From a phage, in the sequence record PZ179883.1: a DNA stretch of 64,000 bases; one strand, written 5' to 3'. Every line of letters begins with the position of its first letter. Position 1 is the stretch's first letter. The position numbers were made by a program, and so were the translations under genes. This document shows positions 20,412-64,000 of this stretch, in pieces. A model generated the notes under the pieces. The model searched no databases, was not told the DNA's origin, and was given only the letters and a program-made list of their open reading frames with translations.

Positions 20412-20439
20412 TTTCTGTTCCTCCGTAGTTGATAGTTGT

Positions 20440-20469
20440 ATAGTACCACAGAGGAACAGTCTTGTAAAC
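20440..20469 (-). promoter_or_regulatory. early promoter (GTTTAC, 18 nt, TGGTACTAT)
   Basis: GTTTAC 20464-20469, TACTAT 20440-20445; upstream of ATG 20411. Confidence 0.6.
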
Positions 20470-20471
20470 CA

Positions 20472-20786
20472 CTAAAAGAAACTTCTTTCACAATTTTTTC
20501 CACTGAACCATGCGCTTACTGCTTTCTTAGTCTCAGGAGCAGTGTTATCCATAAACCATTCAAAGGCAGCCTTTTTATGATTCTGGAGGGCTTCTCGGGC
20601 TTTAATCTGCTCACGGTCTATTAACACTAACATATGAGCCTTTCTTGTCACCATGGGCTTCTTATGATTTTTTGAATACTCCCAGTCATTTGTCCATCGC
20701 ATTGTCGTTGCGAATTGAAATACAGCTTCTTTAATCTTAGTTTCGTAAATTTCACGAGCCTTTGAGTATAACATCATTACCTCCAT
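20472..20786 (-). CDS. hypothetical protein (104 aa)
   Basis: Track ORF. Confidence 0.45.
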   Translation of the reverse strand: MEVMMLYSKAREIYETKIKEAVFQFATTMRWTNDWEYSKNHKKPMVTRKAHMLVLIDREQIKAREALQNHKKAAFEWFMDNTAPETKKAVSAWFSGKNCERSFF

Positions 20787-21845: not shown

Positions 21846-21881
21846 TTTATTCTCCAATTTCACATTTGTTTTGATAGGGTA

Positions 21882-21911
21882 ATAGTATCACACTACTACC
21901 CTGCTGTAAAC
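21882..21911 (-). promoter_or_regulatory. early promoter (GTTTAC, 18 nt, TGATACTAT)
   Basis: GTTTAC 21906-21911, TACTAT 21882-21887; GATAGGGTA...TACCCT inverted repeat around -10. Confidence 0.55.
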
Positions 21912-22441: not shown

Positions 22442-23455
22442 TCATTTATAATAACTTCGGTGGTTTTCAAGATAAACCCTCTCAAGGAAGTCATCCCAAA
22501 AACCCATGTCTACTTTTTGCTGCATACCGTTCTTAGAAGCTTCAGTAGATGCTGCTTCTACTTGATCGACCACATCTTCCAAAAACTCTTGAACCGTTTT
22601 AAATGGATGTTTACCCAACTTCACGTCGAGAATAAATGGAGCATCTTGGAGTGGATAAACCAAGTCACCAGTTTTGTAAATTTCCAATAGTTGAAGTCCA
22701 CCACGACAAGCATGGCTCAGAGCTTTCCAGTCAATGCCTTCGTTGGCTTCGGCCTTACGAGCACGTTCACCGTATTCAGCATCTAATTTGTTCAGTGACT
22801 GCTTAAGCTCAATAAGAGAAAGAGTTGTCTGATATTTACGACCCAACACAGTGTAGAACGTTTGTGGGCCTGTTTTCTCATGATTATGGAACACCCATTC
22901 ACAGAATTCGTTTTCTGGAAGACGATGCTTAATATCTTCAACTTTAGTACGACGCTGCTTAATGGAACCGTCTTCTTGGTAATCAACCCATTGCTCAGGG
23001 ATTTGATTAACTACTTTCAATACATCACGTAATGCTGCCAAACGAGAACCCTTGACACCGTATTTAGAAGCTTGCTTACGGACATATCCTAAATATGATT
23101 TCATGTTAGTCGTATAAAAACGAGAACGGTTGTCTTGAATAAACTTCCACACATCAGGCAAATCAGATTTAACCACTAACTCAGGTGGAGTGTGAAGCAT
23201 ATCTAACGCTACAGTTTCACCATCTGCTGCTAATTTAAAGAAATATTTAAGACTATACAATTCGTGGTCAATATCATCTTTAGTGTTTTTAGATGATGTG
23301 TTGTTAGTGTTTTTACTCATATGCTCTTTAACATTTCCGATAAGAATATCACGAGCAGGAGGAACAAAGATTTCTTTAAAATCTACATCAGATTCTGGGG
23401 TAGAAGTTCCATAAAGATGACTACCAAAATAGCTTTTCATTACTGTTTTCATCAT
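22442..23455 (-). CDS. nucleotidyltransferase-fold protein (337 aa)
   Basis: N-terminal GS-x10-DVD motif (GSHLYGTSTPESDVDF) typical of Pol-beta-like NTases; followed by a terminator. Confidence 0.5.
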   Translation of the reverse strand: MMKTVMKSYFGSHLYGTSTPESDVDFKEIFVPPARDILIGNVKEHMSKNTNNTSSKNTKDDIDHELYSLKYFFKLAADGETVALDMLHTPPELVVKSDLPDVWKFIQDNRSRFYTTNMKSYLGYVRKQASKYGVKGSRLAALRDVLKVVNQIPEQWVDYQEDGSIKQRRTKVEDIKHRLPENEFCEWVFHNHEKTGPQTFYTVLGRKYQTTLSLIELKQSLNKLDAEYGERARKAEANEGIDWKALSHACRGGLQLLEIYKTGDLVYPLQDAPFILDVKLGKHPFKTVQEFLEDVVDQVEAASTEASKNGMQQKVDMGFWDDFLERVYLENHRSYYK

Positions 23456-23913
23456 TCAGCCTTATATTCAATAACAGGACATACTTTAGCTTTACGAGCT
23501 TTTAAAAATTCAACGATAATCGATTTCTTGGGTTGAATAGGAGGTAAACCTTTATACGCCCTATCAATATTTTCTACGTGTAAAGCATAATCCTTTTTCC
23601 ATTTATAATCTTTATATTTTTCACGCAGTTGTGCAGGAATAACAAATGAACCGATAATAAGTAAAACAAGCAAAATGGCAAGTATAAATGCTGATGGAAT
23701 AAGAGTCCATAAACTACCAAAAATAAGCCATTTCTGTATGATTTCTGCGCAGATGATAGTTAGACCTACGAGTATAGTACATCCGAAAAAAGAAACGAAA
23801 AATGTAGGGATAACAATAGACCAAAAGTATGCGCACAGCGTCTTAGGTCGTTGCCATTCATCGTTAAACAATTTGAATAATTTATAGTGCCAAGAGTTTT
23901 CATTAATAATCAT
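23452..23913 (-). CDS. multi-pass membrane protein (153 aa)
   Basis: Several hydrophobic segments; stop overlaps NTase start. Confidence 0.5.
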   Translation of the reverse strand: MIINENSWHYKLFKLFNDEWQRPKTLCAYFWSIVIPTFFVSFFGCTILVGLTIICAEIIQKWLIFGSLWTLIPSAFILAILLVLLIIGSFVIPAQLREKYKDYKWKKDYALHVENIDRAYKGLPPIQPKKSIIVEFLKARKAKVCPVIEYKAE

Positions 23914-23915
23914 AA

Positions 23916-24437
23916 TTATCCTTTCATTGAAGGTGTAACAGTTGTTAAATACTTAATCATAGCTTCAGCTTCTGATTTTGATAATGAAATTTCTTCATTG
24001 TTTTGACGAATAGAAATAAAATCCGGATGACGGTCACCACCGGCTTTTAAAACACACATATAAGTATCAGTTTCATCTTCAATATTTGAAATGATTGAAG
24101 CAGTTCCACACGAATGTGGTTTTTGATAAATCAATACAGCTTTTCTTCCACCATTTGACTGTTCATAAACTTTTAATACATCAAACAAATCACTTCTTTT
24201 ATCAATAGCTAAAATGTTGTTTTCATCTTCAATGTTAAATCCTTCGGATACTTCATAAAGTGTCACCCATAAATCACCTATATCGATAGTAGCATTTTCC
24301 TTTCCATGACTTTCAAGAGCATGACAAATTTTCTTGATTTCGTCATAACTCATTTTAATAATATCATCTCCTTGACTAAGAAAGATGTCATTTTTAAATT
24401 CAACACGAATTAAACCGCTTCCACTTGAAATAAACAT
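23916..24437 (-). CDS. hypothetical protein, tandem paralog A (173 aa)
   Basis: C-terminus EAEAMIKYLTTVTPSMKG resembles neighbour. Confidence 0.5.
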   Translation of the reverse strand: MFISSGSGLIRVEFKNDIFLSQGDDIIKMSYDEIKKICHALESHGKENATIDIGDLWVTLYEVSEGFNIEDENNILAIDKRSDLFDVLKVYEQSNGGRKAVLIYQKPHSCGTASIISNIEDETDTYMCVLKAGGDRHPDFISIRQNNEEISLSKSEAEAMIKYLTTVTPSMKG

Positions 24438-24443
24438 ATTTCC

Positions 24444-25001
24444 TCACTTTGAAATCATAGTTGGAATGACAGAATCAAGATAAGTCTTTAACGCAATAGC
24501 TTCGTCTTTGGTAAATGTGACAATATGTGATCGAAAATCGTCAATTTGGCGAATAGTTAAGACATCTCCCTCTTCATAACATTTTGATACATTTAAAAGA
24601 GTTTCATCATTCTGATTGCAAGCGTTAGTAATAATAGCATTGCAATTTTTGAGCCATTTTAAACTATGTTTTCTTTCATTAGAATAATAAAAATATTTAA
24701 TCTTATCTATAAAACTATCCCAATGGATAACTGATAAACACATTGACTCACTTTTAATATTAAATCCTGGGCATGAAGAATAAAAATGAATTTTGTGCTC
24801 ATCATTGATGCTTACTATTTTATCAGTATAAGGATATTCAATTTGGGTTAAATGAATGATTTCACTAGGCGTAAAATATAGCATATCGTCTTCTTGTGTC
24901 AAACGATACATATTATTTACTTTTTCTATAGCTAATTCACCAAAAAGCGGACTAACTTCTAATACTAATCGTTTCATATTGATTCTCTTCGACTCACCCA
25001 C
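24444..25001 (-). CDS. hypothetical protein, tandem paralog B (185 aa)
   Basis: C-terminus DEAIALKTYLDSVIPTMISK resembles neighbour. Confidence 0.5.
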   Translation of the reverse strand: MGESKRINMKRLVLEVSPLFGELAIEKVNNMYRLTQEDDMLYFTPSEIIHLTQIEYPYTDKIVSINDEHKIHFYSSCPGFNIKSESMCLSVIHWDSFIDKIKYFYYSNERKHSLKWLKNCNAIITNACNQNDETLLNVSKCYEEGDVLTIRQIDDFRSHIVTFTKDEAIALKTYLDSVIPTMISK

Positions 25002-25113
25002 AATTACATACTCCTTTGAATAATATCAATAATGTTGTTCACCAGATTATAAGTAAACATTGGATAATTATATTGAATCATCACATACACAACAAACAAA
25101 ACTTTCATTCTCT

Positions 25114-25149
25114 TCTCCTTGGCAGTTGACAAGATTACTATATCATAAT
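25114..25149. repeat. 14 bp perfect inverted repeat with 8 bp spacer
   Basis: AGTTGACAAGATTA - CTATATCA - TAATCTTGTCAACT. Confidence 0.8.
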
Positions 25150-25156
25150 CTTGTCA
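25127..25156 (-). promoter_or_regulatory. candidate early promoter overlapped by a 14 bp inverted repeat
   Basis: GTTTAC 25151-25156, TATAGT 25127-25132; inverted repeat AGTTGACAAGATTA/TAATCTTGTCAACT at 25114-25149 spans the -10 and spacer. Confidence 0.4.
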
Positions 25157-25167
25157 ACTTGTAAACC

Positions 25168-25341
25168 ATTAAATGACGTTTTCAATAAAATTCTGAAGCT
25201 TTGTGTGAGCATCAACCATAATTTTCATTTCTTCCTTTGCGAAAGCTGTACCTCTTTCCCGAGCAGAATACTCATAGTCAGAAACTGCATTAGCATATTC
25301 TTCAATTAGCTTCATTAAAAACATTTGCTTTTCAGTTTTCA
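25168..25341 (-). CDS. small ORF (57 aa), uncertain
   Basis: ATG 25339-25341 with AGGTGG RBS; below track cut-off; 10 nt overlap with upstream ORF. Confidence 0.3.
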
Positions 25342-25562
25342 TTATTCCACCTAATCATTTCAAGATATTGAACTAACTTAGCTTTGGATTTATCCAAATC
25401 CTTTTTAGCTGCTTCTATACCGTCGTATGAATATCCTTCACAGTGCTCAACTGCCAATTGATATGAATCTATTTCAATATCACGTGCTAATTTAATGATT
25501 TTTTCAAACTGTTCACGTGTTAGCATACTAAACTCTCGTATTATGATCAATAATTTCATCAA
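25332..25562 (-). CDS. hypothetical protein (76 aa)
   Basis: Track ORF. Confidence 0.4.
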   Translation of the reverse strand: MMKLLIIIREFSMLTREQFEKIIKLARDIEIDSYQLAVEHCEGYSYDGIEAAKKDLDKSKAKLVQYLEMIRWNNEN

Positions 25563-25926: not shown

Positions 25927-25956
25927 ATAGTATCACAGCTCAAATGGAAAGTAAAC
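25927..25956 (-). promoter_or_regulatory. early promoter (GTTTAC, 18 nt, TGATACTAT)
   Basis: GTTTAC 25951-25956, TACTAT 25927-25932; follows terminator 25965-25989. Confidence 0.6.
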
Positions 25957-25964
25957 CGGTAAAA

Positions 25965-25989
25965 TGAAAAAAGTCTCCCGAAGGAGACT
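25965..25989 (-). terminator. intrinsic terminator after rI-adjacent gene
   Basis: AGUCUCC-UUCG-GGAGACU followed by UUUUUUCAUUUU. Confidence 0.65.
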
Positions 25990-30111: not shown

Positions 30112-30138
30112 GTTATTCTCCTCTTAACTGATAGAAAA

Positions 30139-30168
30139 ATTATACCACAGTCAAGAGGAAAAGTAAAC
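30139..30168 (-). promoter_or_regulatory. early promoter upstream of regB (GTTTAC, 18 nt, TGGTATAAT)
   Basis: GTTTAC 30163-30168, TATAAT 30139-30144; 28 nt before regB ATG. Confidence 0.65.
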
Positions 30169-32727: not shown

Positions 32728-32754
32728 AATTTCCTCCAAGTAGTTGATGAATGT

Positions 32755-32784
32755 ATAGTATCAAAGTCCTTGGAGGAAGTAAAC
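32755..32784 (-). promoter_or_regulatory. early promoter upstream of denV
   Basis: GTTTAC 32779-32784, TACTAT 32755-32760; between ipII stop and denV start. Confidence 0.6.
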
Positions 32785-32785
32785 A

Positions 32786-33588
<803 letters not shown>

Positions 33589-36459: not shown

Positions 36460-36560
36460 AGTATTTCCTTAGGTTAATTGAGATTTAAAATCCGTAGGAG
36501 TATAATACTCTATCGTCAAATTATAGGCTCATAATATCTCAATCATGAGCCTGCGTAAAC

Positions 36561-37706: not shown

Positions 37707-37735
37707 TAAAAAGCCCCAACCTTTCGGTCGGGGCT
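37707..37735 (-). terminator. intrinsic terminator, copy 1 of a 31-nt identical element
   Basis: Minus-strand GCCCCGACC-GAAA-GGUUGGGGC followed by UUUUUAG; identical to 38262-38291. Confidence 0.7.
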
Positions 37736-38261: not shown

Positions 38262-38291
38262 ACCAAAAAGCCCCAACCTTTCGGTCGGGGC
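38262..38291 (-). terminator. intrinsic terminator, copy 2 of the 31-nt element
   Basis: Same hairpin plus U tract, at the downstream edge of the tRNA/small RNA region. Confidence 0.7.
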
Positions 38292-38342
38292 TAAGCCTTG
38301 CGGCAACCTTGTCGGGGTTCCACCTGCTAAGGCAAGTGTTTG

Positions 38343-41515: not shown

Positions 41516-41543
41516 TTTATTCTCCTCAGTAGTAGATAGGGTA

Positions 41544-41573
41544 ATAGTATCACTACCCTATCTAAAAGTAAAC
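41544..41573 (-). promoter_or_regulatory. early promoter with perfect 9 bp inverted repeat around -10
   Basis: GTTTAC 41568-41573, TACTAT 41544-41549; GATAGGGTA (41534-41542) / TACCCTATC (41553-41561). Confidence 0.55.
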
Positions 41574-55443: not shown

Positions 55444-57248
55444 TGAAACAAAATATTAATATCGGTAATGTTGTTGATGATGGTACTGGTGACTACCTGC
55501 GTAAAGGTGGTATAAAAATAAATGAAAACTTTGATGAACTTTATTATGAACTTGGTGATGGAGATGTTCCATATTCAGCCGGTGCCTGGAAAACTTATAA
55601 TGCTTCATCTGGACAAACACTAACGGCAGAATGGGGAAAATCATATGCCATTAATACTTCGTCTGGAAGAGTAACTCTACAACTTCCTAAAGGAACTGTT
55701 AATGATTACAACAAGGTAATTAGAGCTAGAGACGTATTCGCTACATGGAACATCAATCCAGTTACTTTAGTAGCTGCTTCCGGAGATACAATTAAAGGGT
55801 CGTCATCATCGGTTGAAATTAATGTTCAATTTAGTGATTTAGAGTTAGTTTATTGCGCTCCAGGACGTTGGGAATATGTCAAAAACAAACAAATTGACAA
55901 AATTGTTAGTTCAGATATTAGTAACGTAGCTCGCAAAGAATTTTTAGTTGAAGTTCAAGGACAAACTGACTTTTTAGATGTTTTCAATGGAACTAGTTAT
56001 AATGTTAATAACATAAGAGTGAAGCATCGTGGTAACGAATTATATTACGGTGATGTATTTAGTGAAAATAGCGACTTTGGCTCTCCAGGGGAAAATGAAG
56101 GCGAATTAGTTCCTCTTGATGGATTTAATATTCGATTAAGACAGCCATGTAATATTGGTGACACCGTTCAAATTGAAACATTTATGGATGGTGTATCACA
56201 ATGGAGAAGTTCATATACAAGACGCCAAATAAAAGTACTAGATTCAAAACTAACATCAAAGACTTCATTAGAAGGAAGTATTTACGTTACTGATTTATCA
56301 ACGATGAAATCAATTCCATTTTCCGCTTTTGGATTAATTCCTGGTGAACCTATTAATCCTAATTCTCTTGAGGTTCGTTTTAATGGAATTTTACAGCAGC
56401 AGGCTGGAACAGCTGGATATCCTCTGTTTTTGTGTGAAGGCGCTAATTCAGATACGCAAGAAGGATGTATATCTCTTGGCGGCGAATGGAAAGAATCAAA
56501 CACGGATTATTCTATAGAATATGAAGACGGAAAACCTATCAGTCTTTTATTTGATAGAAAATTTGAATCCGGCGACATTATCGTTATAACATGGTTCAAT
56601 AACGATTTAGGAACTCTTTTAGAAAAAGATGACATTATTGAATTAACAGATGACCGTTATGTTAGCAAAGGATCATCTACTGAAGTTACTGGTGATGTGG
56701 CCTTAACAGATTTTGATAAAATCGGCTGGCCAAATGTTGAAAAAGTTGATTCTTATACTAGAACGTATAATTCAATATCATCTATTTTCGATAGCATTTA
56801 TCCTGTAGGTTCAATTTATGAAAATGCTATAAATCCAAATAATCCGGTGACTTATATGGGATTTGGTTCATGGAAATTATTTGGCAAAGGACAAGTTTTA
56901 GTAGGATGGAATGATGATGTTACGGATCCAAACTTTGCTTTAAACAATAATGATTTAGATTCTAGCGGAAATCCTTCACATACTGCCGGTGGAACAGTTG
57001 GAACAACAACAGTGACACTTGAGAATGCAAATCTTCCTGCAACTAAAACCGACGAAAGAGTTTTAATTGAAGACGAAAATGGATCAGTTATTATTGGAGG
57101 TTGCCAATATGACCCAGATGAAACTGGTCCTATATATACAAAATATCGTGAAGACTACGCAACAACAAACTCTTCACATACTCCTCCTGCTAATATTAGT
57201 AATATTCAACCGTCTATTACTGTATACCGTTGGATAAGGATTGCATAA
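55443..57248 (+). CDS. 10: baseplate wedge/short-fibre attachment protein gp10
   Basis: 601 aa; start overlaps gp9 stop. Confidence 0.85.
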
Positions 57249-57907: not shown

Positions 57908-59454
57908 GTAACAATACATATCAGCACGTATCAAATGAATCAAAATATGTTAAATTCGATCCAGTAGGATCGAATTTTCCTAACACTGTCACAACAGTGC
58001 AGTCTGCATTATCAAAAATAAGTAATATCGGCGTAAATGGTATTCCTGATGCAACTATGGAAGTTAAAGGAATAGCAATGATTGCGTCAGAGCAAGAGGT
58101 TTTAGATGGAACTAATAATTCTAAAATCGTTACGCCAGCTACATTAGCAACAAGATTATTATATCCAAATGCTACTGAAACTAAATATGGTTTAACGCGT
58201 TATTCAACAAATGAAGAAACATTAGAAGGCTCAGATAATAATTCATCAATAACGCCGCAAAAACTGAAATACCACACTGACGATGTGTTCCAAAATAGAT
58301 ATTCGTCTGAGTCATCAAACGGGGTTATTAAAATATCATCTACACCTGCAGCTTTAGCTGGAGTTGATGATACTACGGCAATGACTCCATTAAAAACACA
58401 AAAACTTGCAATAAAATTAATTTCACAAATAGCCCCTTCCGAAGATACTGCATCAGAATCTGTGAGAGGTGTAGTTCAATTATCTACTGTTGCGCAAACT
58501 CGTCAAGGAACTCTCCGCGAAGGATATGCAATTTCTCCGTATACCTTTATGAATTCTGTTGCAACACAAGAATATAAGGGTGTTATACGTTTAGGAACAC
58601 AATCGGAAATTAACAGTAATTTAGGAGATGTTGCAGTAACAGGTGAAACACTAAATGGTCGAGGAGCTACTGGTTCTATGCGTGGAGTAGTTAAATTAAC
58701 GACGCAAGCCGGTATTGCCCCTGAAGGTGATAGCTCTGGTGCATTAGCATGGAACGCAGATGTAATTAATACTCGTGGTGGACAAACTATTAACGGTTCT
58801 TTAAATTTAGACCATCTTACAGCAAACGGAATTTGGTCGCGCGGCGGAATGTGGAAAAATGGCGATCAACCTGTTGCCACTGAAAGATATGCGTCCGAAA
58901 GGATTCCAGTTGGAACTATTATGATGTTTGCAGGTGATTCAGCACCTCCAGGTTGGATTATGTGCCACGGCGGAACCGTGTCAGGAGATCAATATCCTGA
59001 TTATAGAAACGTAGTTGGAGGAAGATTTGGTGGGGATTGGAATAATCCAGGGATTCCTGATATGCGAGGTCTTTTCGTCAGAGGAGCTGGCACGGGCGGT
59101 CATATTTTAAATCAACGTGGACAAGATGGTTATGGGAAGGATAGACTTGGCGTAGGATGTGACGGAATGCATGTTGGTGGTGTTCAGGCACAACAAATGT
59201 CATACCATAAACATGCTGGTGGTTGGGGAGAATACCAAAGACATGAAGCTCCATTTGGCGCGTCAGTTTATCAAGGATATCTTGGAACTAGAAAATATTC
59301 CGACTGGGATAATGCTTCATACTTCACTAATGATGGATTTGAATTGGGTGGACCGAGAGATGCCCTTGGTACACTTAATCGTGAAGGATTAATTGGTTAT
59401 GAAACTAGACCATGGAATATATCATTAAACTATATTATTAAAGTTCATTACTAA
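57904..59454 (+). CDS. 12: short tail fibre gp12
   Basis: 516 aa, position between 11 and wac. Confidence 0.85.

Positions 59455-62695: not shown

Positions 62696-64000
<1,305 letters not shown>

What the first reader, a model, noticed from the sequence alone, without database searches (positions are those of the whole stretch)
25114..25156. 14 bp perfect inverted repeat overlapping a candidate early promoter
AGTTGACAAGATTA / TAATCTTGTCAACT with an 8 bp spacer covers the -10 and spacer of a GTTTAC-type promoter. A palindrome of this size at a promoter suggests an operator for a dimeric DNA-binding protein or a cruciform-prone site; most other early promoters here lack it.
Basis: seen in the sequence. 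Interest (0 to 1): 0.45.

Follow-up and report, generated by a model that had tools for sequence, protein, structure and literature searches.

The report
Stem-loop built into T4-type early promoter
The palindrome is real, but it is most likely the DNA trace of an RNA hairpin built into a known T4-type early promoter cassette (a "PeSL"), a design shared by about half of the early promoters in these phages, and not a repressor-binding site.

Summary
The window is a T4-like phage (Tequatrovirus). On the coding (minus) strand the repeat sits between mobD.2a and mobD.2, inside the orthologue of T4 early promoter Pe57954. The layout is -35 TTTACA, 5' arm in the spacer, TG plus -10 TATAGT in the loop, and 3' arm over -7..+7. 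Locally started transcripts therefore lack the 5' arm; only read-through RNA can fold.

Pairing is kept by compensatory changes in Mosigvirus. Gelderlandvirus and Winklervirus have unrelated stems at the same place. About 80% of the Tequatrovirus records counted carry two A-to-G changes; with the standard 3' arm these give G.U pairs, which keep the sense RNA hairpin but weaken a DNA cruciform.

Similar hairpins with unrelated sequences occur at 8 of 13 early promoters in the window and at 16 of 33 in T4.

This matches the published promoter-early stem-loop (PeSL) class. The operator and cruciform readings are not supported. The hairpin's exact job (attenuator, 3'-end stabiliser or translation mask) is inferred. 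Known kind, low novelty.

The parts
25160..25166 (-). -35 element GTTTAC(A); TTTACA = 25165-25160, positions -35..-30
   Evidence: Sequence; promoter scan, 10 of 12 consensus positions matched, with TG; strict early-promoter pattern; identical in T4.
25146..25159 (-). 5' arm of the hairpin, AGTTGACAAGATTA. It lies in the promoter spacer (-29..-16) and is present only in RNA read through from upstream.
   Evidence: covariation
25138..25145 (-). Loop TGATATAG. It holds the extended -10 TG (25145-25144) and five of the six bases of the -10.
   Evidence: the loop is nearly invariant across Tequatrovirus and Mosigvirus
25137..25142 (-). -10 hexamer TATAGT
   Evidence: invariant in the 12 aligned relatives
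25124..25137 (-). 3' arm TAATCTTGTCAACT, positions -7..+7. The predicted transcription start is G at 25130, which corresponds to T4 57954.
   Evidence: promoter name Pe57954 in PMC6024815
25115..25120 (-). Shine-Dalgarno AAGGAG of mobD.2. It starts 4 nt 3' of the helix and contains GGAG.
   Evidence: sequence
25004..25108 (-). mobD.2 ORF (34 aa, ATG at 25108), the gene served by this promoter
25169..25342 (-). mobD.2a ORF (57 aa). Its TAA stop at 25171-25169 lies 3 nt upstream of TTTACA (2 nt upstream of GTTTAC). It is the last gene of the upstream transcription unit that reads into the hairpin.
25972..25989 (-). Canonical intrinsic terminator (UUCG loop plus a T run) after rI.-1. It is followed by the early promoter at 25955-25927, the likely source of read-through RNA.
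41533..41564 (-). Sibling element: GTTTAC, then TAGATAGGGTAGT / ATTACCCTATCTA with the -10 in the loop, then SD and ATG of a 61-aa ORF
   Evidence: dG -18.5, z -5.1
21876..21902 (-). Sibling element sharing the GGGTAGT...ACTATTACCC stem with the element at 41.5 kb
   Evidence: dG -15.2, z -3.5
36525..36552 (-). Sibling element AGGCTCATGAT / ATTATGAGCCT after GTTTAC
   Evidence: dG -15.7
30117..30161 (-). Sibling of the second subtype: the spacer pairs with the SD (AAGAGGAGA). It is the orthologue of the T4 regB promoter at 62761.
   Evidence: dG -20.7, z -5.3
32732..32777 (-). Sibling of the second subtype: the spacer pairs with SD GGAGGA
   Evidence: dG -16.7, z -5.1
20415..20459 (-). Sibling of the second subtype: the spacer pairs with SD GGAGGA
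   Evidence: dG -23.2, z -7.3

Best explanation
The palindrome is the stem-loop part of a PeSL-type (promoter-early stem-loop) cassette: a strong sigma-70 early promoter fused to a hairpin, between mobD.2a and mobD.2 of a T4-like phage. It is the orthologue of T4 early promoter Pe57954.

The selected structure is most likely an RNA hairpin in the sense (minus-strand) transcript. The 5' arm lies in the promoter spacer and the start site lies inside the 3' arm. RNA started at this promoter therefore carries only 7 nt of the 3' arm and cannot fold. RNA that reads through from the upstream unit (promoter at 25955, genes mobD.5 to mobD.2a) forms a helix of about -20 kcal/mol that ends 3 nt before the mobD.2 ribosome-binding site.

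Inferred function: the hairpin marks a boundary between transcription units. It either attenuates or ends upstream transcripts, or protects their 3' ends, and it may lower translation of mobD.2 from read-through RNA. mobD.2 and mobD.1 would then be expressed from their own promoters.

Shown here: the anatomy, the promoter identity, selection for pairing, and the fact that the design recurs across promoters. Inferred: RNA as the level of action (moderately supported) and the boundary function (weakly supported).
For: Identity
- The window is 92-97% identical to Tequatrovirus genomes.
- Gene order matches T4 tk, rI.1, rI, rI.-1, mobD.5 to mobD.1.
- T4 has the same arms. My predicted +1 is T4 57954, and Pe57954 is a listed early promoter. 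The same rule reproduces Pe133295, which is named in the T4 GenBank record.

Selection for pairing
- On 12 distinct Tequatrovirus and Mosigvirus sequences, 97% of cells are paired and 5 pairs changed on both sides.
- No shuffle out of 500 reached the observed covariation score. Controls with the partner slid by 1-3 columns gave 23-64% paired.
- RNAalifold recovers the same helix independently.
- Gelderlandvirus and Winklervirus have unrelated stems (ATGATGAGATA, GAGAGGGCAT) with the -10 in the loop at the same locus.
- Karamvirus and Jiaodavirus lack both the promoter and the hairpin.

RNA rather than DNA
- Tequatrovirus 5'-arm variants: perfect in 55 records, one A-to-G change in 21, two in 314. 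With the standard 3' arm these are G.U pairs; that arm, with its flank, is exact in 326 records.
- The two-G.U variant folds as RNA at -20.9 kcal/mol. As DNA it folds at -8.3 (top strand) and -4.4 (bottom strand), against -12.9 and -12.2 for the window.
- All four stem substitutions seen within Tequatrovirus keep sense-strand pairing.

Class level
- 8 of 13 strict early promoters in the window have such a hairpin.
- In T4, 16 of 33 do, against 5.7% of random genome windows (Fisher p 7e-10).
- Sense RNA is the more stable strand in 15 of 17 hairpin-bearing promoters, by a mean of 5.5 kcal/mol (binomial p 0.002).
- In several siblings the 3' arm covers the Shine-Dalgarno sequence.

Literature
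- PeSLs are composite early-promoter plus stem-loop cassettes, with the stem-loop often between -35 and -10 or overlapping the -10. One stem-loop reduced lacZ expression about as much as the rrnB T1 terminator (PMC2839356).
- T4/PST-type PeSLs have the promoter consensus TTTACW N17 TAYWAT (PMC4122927).

Boundary function
- In T4 RNA-seq, the motA-amber to wild-type ratio is 4.8x for mobD.3 and 4.2x for mobD.2a, but 1.0x for mobD.2 (Table S1 of PMC6024815).
Against: - There is no U tract after the helix (GCCAAGGAG follows), so it is not a canonical intrinsic terminator.
- The Shine-Dalgarno sequence and the AUG lie outside the helix, so direct translational masking is not evident for this member.
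- The strand-asymmetry evidence at this locus is small. Five substitution states favour the sense strand and one (C.A in PhAPEC2) favours the antisense strand.
- Covariation alone cannot separate a hairpin from a symmetric operator whose protein co-evolved.
- The RNA-seq evidence consists of per-gene counts for genes of only 105 and 117 nt at a single time point, and it has other explanations, for example RegB cleavage at GGAG followed by decay.
- The one terminator assay in the literature used a G/C-rich stem-loop from phage phi1, not a T4-type one.
- I could not see the figures of the PeSL papers, so I could not confirm that this particular element was catalogued.
Confidence: 0.6

Rival explanations
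1. Operator: the dyad is the binding site of a dimeric phage or host DNA-binding protein that represses or activates this early promoter.
For: - The window has a perfect 14-bp dyad over the spacer and the -10.
- T4 has a second promoter, upstream of dmd (+1 at 20576), with a related dyad core GACAAGAYTA-N8-TARTCTTGTC.
- Symmetric changes between genera would also be expected if a protein's specificity co-evolved with its site.
Against: - About 80% of the Tequatrovirus records counted (314 of 390) carry two A-to-G changes in the 5' arm. In every such sequence I read, the dyad was asymmetric, yet RNA pairing was preserved.
- There is no other exact half-site in the window or in the 168.9 kb of T4. 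Matches with up to 2 mismatches are at chance level.
- Half of the early promoters have hairpins at the same position with unrelated sequences and variable loop lengths of 3-15 nt. One protein could not read them all.
- In Gelderlandvirus and Winklervirus the helix register is shifted by 2 nt.
Confidence: 0.06
2. DNA cruciform: supercoiling extrudes the palindrome and exposes the -10 in a loop, tuning promoter strength to DNA topology.
For: In the window and in T4, both DNA strands fold well: -12.9 and -12.2 kcal/mol, z -6.2 and -7.1. The stem is AT-rich and the spacer is 8 nt.
Against: - In the majority variant the bottom strand folds at -4.4 kcal/mol (z -1.2), no better than shuffles, while the RNA hairpin is unchanged.
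- Across T4 promoters the sense RNA is more stable than the antisense in 15 of 17 cases. A cruciform needs both strands to fold.
- Sibling hairpins have loops of up to about 15 nt and G.U pairs.
Confidence: 0.06
3. Recombination linker: the cassette is maintained mainly as a short conserved patch of homology, or a recombination signal, that lets ORF cassettes be swapped between phages. This is the PeSL modular-shuffling model. Any hairpin function in RNA is secondary. This reading is not exclusive of the best explanation.
For: - The PeSL papers report indels next to PeSLs and mini-circle formation (PMC2839356, PMC4122927).
- Genes flanking the cassette differ between genera while the cassette plus mobD.2 persists.
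- T4 has paralogous copies: 57954 and 20576, 136300 and 123057, and the GGGTAGT family. The window has 41.5 kb and 21.9 kb copies that share a stem.
- mobD is present in T4 but absent here.
Against: - Homology-driven exchange does not require base-pairing, so it does not predict compensatory or G.U-only substitutions or the sense-strand bias.
- Stems differ completely between genera, so the stem gives little homology across them.
Confidence: 0.15
4. Chance palindrome in AT-rich intergenic DNA, with no function beyond the promoter.
For: A perfect stem of at least 14 bp arises in 2.5% of shuffled 64-kb windows.
Against: Conservation with compensatory change across genera, and a roughly 8-fold enrichment of such hairpins at early promoters (16 of 33 against 5.7% of random windows).
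Confidence: 0.02

Closest known systems
PeSL (promoter-early stem-loop) cassettes of T4-type phages (Arbiol et al. 2010, PMC2839356; Comeau et al. 2014, PMC4122927; T-even precursors noted by Repoila et al. 1994, as cited there)
   Same: - The layout runs: stop codon of the upstream ORF, an AT-rich stretch, a sigma-70-type early promoter (T4/PST consensus TTTACW N17 TAYWAT), a stem-loop placed between -35 and -10 or overlapping the -10, then SD and start codon of a small ORF.
- It lies in a hyperplastic region next to variable ORFs.
- It recurs many times per genome.
   Different: - The papers stress DNA-level recombination and a terminator or attenuator role, tested once on a G/C-rich phi1 stem. 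This element is AT-rich, has no U tract and has not been tested.
- The PST/T4 figure legend says the stem-loops lie just upstream of the promoter, whereas here the stem straddles the -10.
- I could not confirm that this particular element is in their catalogue, because the figures are not held.
T4 early promoter Pe57954 (listed in Patterson-West et al. 2018, PMC6024815)
   Same: The sequence is identical from -35 to the mobD.2 ATG except for one loop base (TGG against TGA). The predicted +1 maps exactly to T4 57954.
   Different: That paper treats it only as a promoter whose downstream genes rise without DksA. It does not discuss the hairpin. In its Table S1 mobD.2 itself does not rise (1.1x); the rise begins at mobD.1.
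T4 hairpins with an internal promoter that mask translation on long transcripts (genes e, soc, 49, I-TevI; reviewed in PMC3014915)
   Same: A promoter lies inside the region that encodes the 5' strand of an RNA helix. Upstream-initiated RNA folds and locally initiated RNA does not. Sibling early promoters in the window (30167, 32783, 20468) pair their spacer with the SD in exactly this way.
   Different: The known cases use late promoters and sequester the SD or AUG. Here the promoter is early and the helix stops 3 nt before the SD.
Rho-independent terminators and 3' stabiliser hairpins
   Same: A stable hairpin lies at the end of a transcription unit, immediately after a stop codon.
   Different: There is no U tract and only 5 of 14 pairs are G-C. 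The canonical terminator 800 nt upstream (25989-25972) shows what a real one looks like in this phage.

Membership tests
PeSL (promoter-early stem-loop cassette) | Sigma-70-type early promoter; T4/PST type TTTACW N17 TAYWAT | tested here: met
   TTTACA, 17 nt, TATAGT with an upstream TG. The -10 differs from TAYWAT at one position. The orthologue is listed as T4 Pe57954.
PeSL (promoter-early stem-loop cassette) | Stable stem-loop adjacent to or overlapping the promoter (between -35 and -10, or over the -10) | tested here: met
   14-bp helix over -29..+7 with the -10 in the loop; RNA dG about -20 kcal/mol, z -5 to -6.8.
PeSL (promoter-early stem-loop cassette) | Intergenic position: upstream stop codon at the 5' end, SD and start codon of a small ORF at the 3' end | tested here: met
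   TAA of mobD.2a lies 3 nt before TTTACA (2 nt before GTTTAC). AAGGAG and the ATG of the 34-aa mobD.2 follow.
PeSL (promoter-early stem-loop cassette) | Repeated in the genome, concentrated in hyperplastic regions next to variable ORFs | tested here: met
   8 of 13 early promoters in the window and 16 of 33 in T4. The mobD region differs between T4, this phage and other genera.
PeSL (promoter-early stem-loop cassette) | The stem-loop acts as a terminator or attenuator of upstream transcription | not testable with these tools
   Indirect only: fold changes in T4 RNA-seq are decoupled across the element, and there is no U tract.
PeSL (promoter-early stem-loop cassette) | Mediates recombination or mini-circle formation | not testable with these tools
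   Paralogous copies exist (T4 57954 and 20576), which is consistent but not a test.
Palindromic operator of a dimeric DNA-binding protein | Dyad symmetry maintained at the DNA level in relatives | tested here: not met
   314 + 21 of the 390 Tequatrovirus records counted have A-to-G changes in the 5' arm. Sampled members are asymmetric, or compensated only by a matching change on the other arm.
Palindromic operator of a dimeric DNA-binding protein | The half-site recurs at other co-regulated promoters | tested here: inconclusive
   No exact extra copy in the window or in T4. One related dyad lies at the T4 dmd promoter, with 2 mismatches per half-site that are all pairing-compatible.
Palindromic operator of a dimeric DNA-binding protein | A cognate binding protein exists | not testable with these tools
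   None sought; it needs EMSA or footprinting.
Intrinsic (Rho-independent) terminator | G+C-rich stem followed by a U tract | tested here: not met
   5 G-C pairs out of 14. The helix is followed by GCCAAGGAG. The terminator scan does not report it, although it does find the canonical one at 25989-25972.
T4 translation-masking hairpin with internal promoter (e / soc / 49 / I-TevI type) | A promoter inside the DNA encoding the 5' strand, so local transcripts cannot fold | tested here: met
   +1 at 25130 lies inside the 3' arm. The local 5' UTR folds at only -1.4 kcal/mol, against -27 for read-through RNA.
T4 translation-masking hairpin with internal promoter (e / soc / 49 / I-TevI type) | SD and/or AUG sequestered in the helix | tested here: not met
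   The SD begins 4 nt 3' of the helix. In the single-sequence fold an outer helix pairs the AUG region with the end of mobD.2a. RNAalifold on six sequences finds a different outer helix that pairs codons 2-4 of mobD.2. Siblings at 30167, 32783 and 20468 do meet this feature.

The most novel reading that the evidence does not exclude
About half of T-even early promoters carry a built-in, sense-strand RNA hairpin, with the 5' arm in the promoter spacer and the 3' arm in the 5' UTR. It would act as a general insulator: RNA arriving from upstream is capped, attenuated or translationally masked at each cassette, so every small early ORF is expressed essentially only from its own promoter. This would extend the gene e / soc / 49 logic from a few late promoters to the early transcription programme. 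It would also explain why these cassettes can be shuffled between genomes without disturbing their neighbours. The element studied here would be the subtype with the -10 in the loop and the SD free, whose mechanism (3'-end formation or protection rather than SD masking) has not been described.
Probability: 0.35. Interest if true: 0.5.

Novelty: already known. Interest (0 to 1): 0.27.

Why it matters
For annotation, this palindrome should be labelled as part of a PeSL-type early promoter cassette (T4 Pe57954 orthologue), not as an operator.

More broadly, the comparative data add something the PeSL papers did not show. The stems are under selection for base-pairing, and the substitutions are tolerated in sense RNA but not in DNA. 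That points to a job in the transcript rather than, or in addition to, a role as recombination homology.

If confirmed, the way T4-like phages keep dozens of small early gene cassettes transcriptionally and translationally independent could be tested with simple compensatory mutants.

Tried and rejected
- Rfam scan of 24800-25500 with permissive E-values: only chance snoRNA-like hits below threshold.
- Half-site search in the window and in the complete T4 genome, as a test for a regulon: nothing beyond chance except the paralogous dmd-promoter cassette.
- IMG/VR scans with MobD.1 and with a back-translated MobD.2 motif: only 4 and 7 loci, mostly duplicates. I used INPHARED records instead.
- T4 GenBank and RefSeq records: no promoter or stem-loop features are annotated at this site. 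The Miller 2003 T4 genome review is not held.
- A literature search for T4 TSS or terminator mapping by modern methods found nothing usable.
- The per-gene RNA-seq table was used only as suggestive evidence, because the genes are about 100 nt long and there is one time point.
- Intrinsic terminator: rejected, because there is no U tract.
- The Kha5h record annotates a 'potential repressor-binding site (OL1)' and a 'cos site' nearby. These lie downstream of mobD.2, not at the palindrome, and look like artefacts of pattern-matching annotation. I ignored them.
- From memory, the inner arms plus loop (GATTATGATATAGTAATC) loosely resemble a Fur box. I did not test this and dropped it, because the inner stem changes in Mosigvirus, Winklervirus and Gelderlandvirus.

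Full report
**1. The observation**

The inverted repeat AGTTGACAAGATTA / TAATCTTGTCAACT is real. It is 14/14 complementary, has 8 nt between the arms, and lies at 25124-25137 and 25146-25159.

It is the longest perfect short-loop inverted repeat in the window. A perfect stem this long turns up in 5 of 200 dinucleotide-preserving shuffles of the 64 kb. Length alone is therefore only mildly significant. Comparative data make the case.

**2. Context**

The window is a T4-like phage, 92-97% identical to many Tequatrovirus genomes. All genes in this part are on the minus strand, in T4 order: tk, rI.1, rI, rI.-1, mobD.5, mobD.4, mobD.3, mobD.2a, mobD.2, mobD.1.

Read on the minus strand, the region is:

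...GTC ATT TAA tg GTTTACA AGTTGACAAGATTA TGATATAG TAATCTTGTCAACT gcc AAGGAG aagaga ATG

- The stop codon of mobD.2a lies 3 nt before the -35 hexamer TTTACA (2 nt before GTTTAC).
- The 5' arm fills positions -29..-16 of the 17-nt spacer.
- The loop holds the extended -10 TG and most of the -10 TATAGT.
- The 3' arm covers -7..+7.
- The mobD.2 ribosome-binding site begins 4 nt after the helix.

T4 has the same sequence apart from one loop base. With +1 taken as the seventh base after the -10, it falls at T4 coordinate 57954. An early promoter 'Pe57954' is listed in Patterson-West et al. 2018 (PMC6024815). The same rule reproduces 'Pe133295', which is named in the T4 GenBank record.

**3. Consequence of the anatomy**

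RNA started at this promoter begins inside the 3' arm and is essentially unstructured (-1.4 kcal/mol). RNA that reads through from upstream contains both arms. It folds into the hairpin within a structure of -27 kcal/mol (z -5.0). The likely source of such RNA is the early promoter at 25955, which sits just after a canonical terminator at 25989-25972.

**4. Conservation and covariation**

*Tequatrovirus.* The 5' arm occurs in three forms in the INPHARED phage records:
- perfect (GACAAGA): 55 records
- one A-to-G change: 21 records
- two A-to-G changes: 314 records

The 3' arm with its flank is exact in 326 records. In sampled genomes both changes give G.U pairs. ECML-363 and UFV-AREG1 then convert one G.U to G-C by a T-to-C change in the 3' arm, and UFV-AREG1 adds a further G.U.

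*Mosigvirus.* The stem is TTGGTAGGAYTA / TARTCCTACCAA. It has four fully compensated pairs relative to T4, and one position is seen as C-G, U.G and C.A.

*Pair counts.* On 12 distinct sequences, 97% of cells are paired and five pairs changed on both sides. No shuffle out of 500 reached the covariation score. Controls with the partner slid by 1-3 columns gave 23-64% paired. RNAalifold finds the same helix unaided.

*More distant genera.* Gelderlandvirus (Melville) and Winklervirus (CBH8) have a promoter with the -10 in the loop of a hairpin at the same place, upstream of mobD.2. Their stems are unrelated (ATGATGAGATA, GAGAGGGCAT), and the 3' arm is shifted by 2 nt. In Karamvirus and Jiaodavirus mobD.2 abuts the upstream ORF, and both promoter and hairpin are absent. 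Promoter and hairpin therefore travel together as a unit.

**5. RNA or DNA?**

Covariation alone cannot separate a hairpin from a symmetric operator whose protein co-evolved. Four other observations bear on the question.

- *The majority variant.* The two-G.U variant is as stable as the perfect one when folded as RNA (-20.9 kcal/mol). As DNA it drops to -8.3 (top strand) and -4.4 (bottom strand, z -1.2), against -12.9 and -12.2 for the window. The perfect DNA palindrome seen here and in T4 is thus the minority state.
- *Substitution states at this locus.* All four Tequatrovirus stem substitutions keep sense-strand pairing. In Mosigvirus one state favours the sense strand and one the antisense strand. 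This is only modest evidence by itself.
- *No regulon.* The half-site has no other exact copy in the window or in the complete T4 genome, and near matches are at chance level.
- *A recurrent design.* The strict early-promoter pattern is TTTACN, a 17-nt spacer ending in TGN, then TAnnnT (16-18 nt allowed in the T4 scan).
  - In the window, 8 of 13 such promoters have a hairpin joining the spacer to the 5' UTR with z of -2.4 or lower.
  - In T4, 16 of 33 do, against 5.7% of random genome windows (Fisher p 7e-10).
  - The stems are unrelated in sequence and the loops range from 3 to about 15 nt.
  - In 15 of the 17 promoters with a hairpin on either strand, the sense RNA is the more stable, by 5.5 kcal/mol on average (binomial p 0.002). 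Promoters without hairpins show no such bias.

Two subtypes appear:
- -10 in a short loop with the SD free: this element, T4 20576, 133295, 129883, 146107 and 73903.
- Spacer paired with the SD: for example the regB promoter, and window 30167, 32783 and 20468.

**6. What is known**

This is the published PeSL class. Arbiol et al. 2010 (PMC2839356) describe composite cassettes of an early promoter and a stem-loop in phi1/RB49. The stem-loop is most often between -35 and -10 or overlapping the -10. The authors argue that it terminates or attenuates upstream transcription; one G/C-rich stem reduced lacZ expression about as much as rrnB T1. They also argue that it mediates modular shuffling. They note that T-even phages have analogous elements built on T4 early promoters, with weaker, AT-rich stems.

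Comeau et al. 2014 (PMC4122927) catalogue such elements in PST/T4, with promoter consensus TTTACW N17 TAYWAT. The logic of a promoter placed inside a hairpin is also known from the T4 late genes e, soc, 49 and I-TevI (PMC3014915). The gene e example is visible in this window at 33582-33553.

**7. Mechanism proposed**

The best-supported reading is an RNA hairpin that exists only on read-through transcripts and marks the boundary between the mobD.5-mobD.2a unit and mobD.2.

It is not a canonical terminator, because no U tract follows it. It does not directly cover the SD. It may act in any of three ways:
- as an attenuator;
- as a 3'-end protector for the upstream mRNA after cleavage or termination downstream (the SD contains GGAG, the RegB cleavage motif);
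- as part of a larger fold that hinders initiation. The single-sequence fold and RNAalifold each predict an outer helix involving the mobD.2 start region, though not the same one.

One published data set is suggestive. In T4 RNA-seq at 5 min, the motA-amber to wild-type ratio is 4.8x for mobD.3 and 4.2x for mobD.2a, but 1.0x for mobD.2 and 2.2x for mobD.1. The increase in the upstream genes thus does not carry into mobD.2. These are counts on very short genes at one time point, so I treat them as weak evidence.

My confidence that the element is a PeSL-type cassette and the Pe57954 orthologue is high, about 0.85-0.9. That the hairpin acts as RNA I put at about 0.6. For any one of the specific boundary mechanisms I put it at no more than 0.35.

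**8. Rivals**

- The operator and cruciform readings are each disfavoured by the asymmetric majority variant, the lack of a regulon and the class-level strand bias.
- The recombination-linker model of the PeSL authors is compatible with the data and not exclusive. T4 has paralogous cassettes, notably a copy of this one at the dmd promoter with two compensated pairs and two G.U pairs. However, it does not predict substitutions that preserve pairing.
- Chance is excluded.

**9. Verdict**

The promoter reading is right, and the operator and cruciform readings are not supported. The claim that other early promoters lack such repeats is wrong. The feature belongs to a known kind and is orthologous to a catalogued T4 promoter, so its novelty is low. 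The modest added value is evidence that the stems are selected for pairing in the sense RNA.

Noticed in passing
T4 NC_000866 about 20563-20611 (L030), minus strand, upstream of dmd: A paralogue of the studied cassette: TTTACA AGCTGACAAGACTA TGGTATAG TAGTCTTGTCGGTT, then SD and the dmd ATG. Relative to Pe57954 it has two fully compensated pairs and two G.U pairs; RNA dG is -21.7 kcal/mol. It lies outside the window.
   Followed up: partly
window 41533-41564 and 21876-21902 (minus strand): Two early-promoter cassettes 19.6 kb apart share the stem core GGGTAGT...ACTATTACCC and the -10 TGATACTAT. T4 has the same family at 146107, 73536 and 166771. They could serve as substrates for the PeSL-mediated recombination described in the literature.
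   Followed up: partly
window 30117-30167, 32732-32783 and 20415-20468 (minus strand): Early promoters whose spacer pairs with the Shine-Dalgarno sequence of the downstream gene (dG -17 to -23 kcal/mol). This is the gene e type of translational masking, but built around early rather than late promoters. The one at 30167 is the orthologue of the T4 regB promoter.
   Followed up: partly
window 25033-25047 (minus strand), inside mobD.2; L009 627-656: The most conserved MobD.2 peptide (MFTYN) is encoded by ATGTTTACTTATAAT, which contains GTTTAC and TATAAT. The fPS-2 record annotates a predicted early promoter starting at this GTTTAC. It is probably T4 'Pe57.9', serving mobD.1. The peptide conservation and the promoter may constrain each other.
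   Followed up: no
window 25169-25342, against T4 58049-58165: mobD.2a is 57 aa here and in most relatives, but only 38 aa in the T4 reference. A net 1-nt difference (TTTCGCAAAGG here, TTTTCCAAGG in T4) appears to shift the frame. It leaves 116 untranslated nt before the promoter in T4.
   Followed up: partly
window 23452-24437, against T4 56429-57208: The mobD homing-endonuclease gene of T4 is absent. In its place are a 173-aa paralogue of MobD.1 and a 153-aa ORF that looks hydrophobic (a possible membrane protein), as in RB32 and Kha5h.
   Followed up: no
alignment A3, columns 2-8 with 104-110 (window about 25217-25223 with 25096-25102): RNAalifold predicts an outer 7-bp helix pairing the 3' end of the upstream ORF with codons 2-4 of mobD.2. 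Two pairs are compensated between Tequatrovirus and Mosigvirus, even though the upstream ORFs are annotated as different genes. It could enclose the SD and AUG on read-through RNA, or it could be chance in AT-rich sequence.
   Followed up: no
window 33553-33582 (minus strand): The classic gene e (lysozyme) hairpin: AATACCTTCTA / TAGGAGGTATT, with the late promoter TATAAATA in it and the SD in the 3' arm.
   Followed up: no
window 38269-38292 and 37712-37735 (minus strand): Two identical terminator hairpins, AGCCCCGACC gaaa GGTTGGGGCT followed by TTTT, lie 557 nt apart in what appears to be the tRNA region.
   Followed up: no
L002 (Kha5h NC_054905) 1773-1783 and 2222-2234: The record annotates a 'cos site' and a 'potential repressor-binding site (OL1)' in a T4-like genome. 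These look like pattern-match artefacts. Neither overlaps the palindrome.
   Followed up: no
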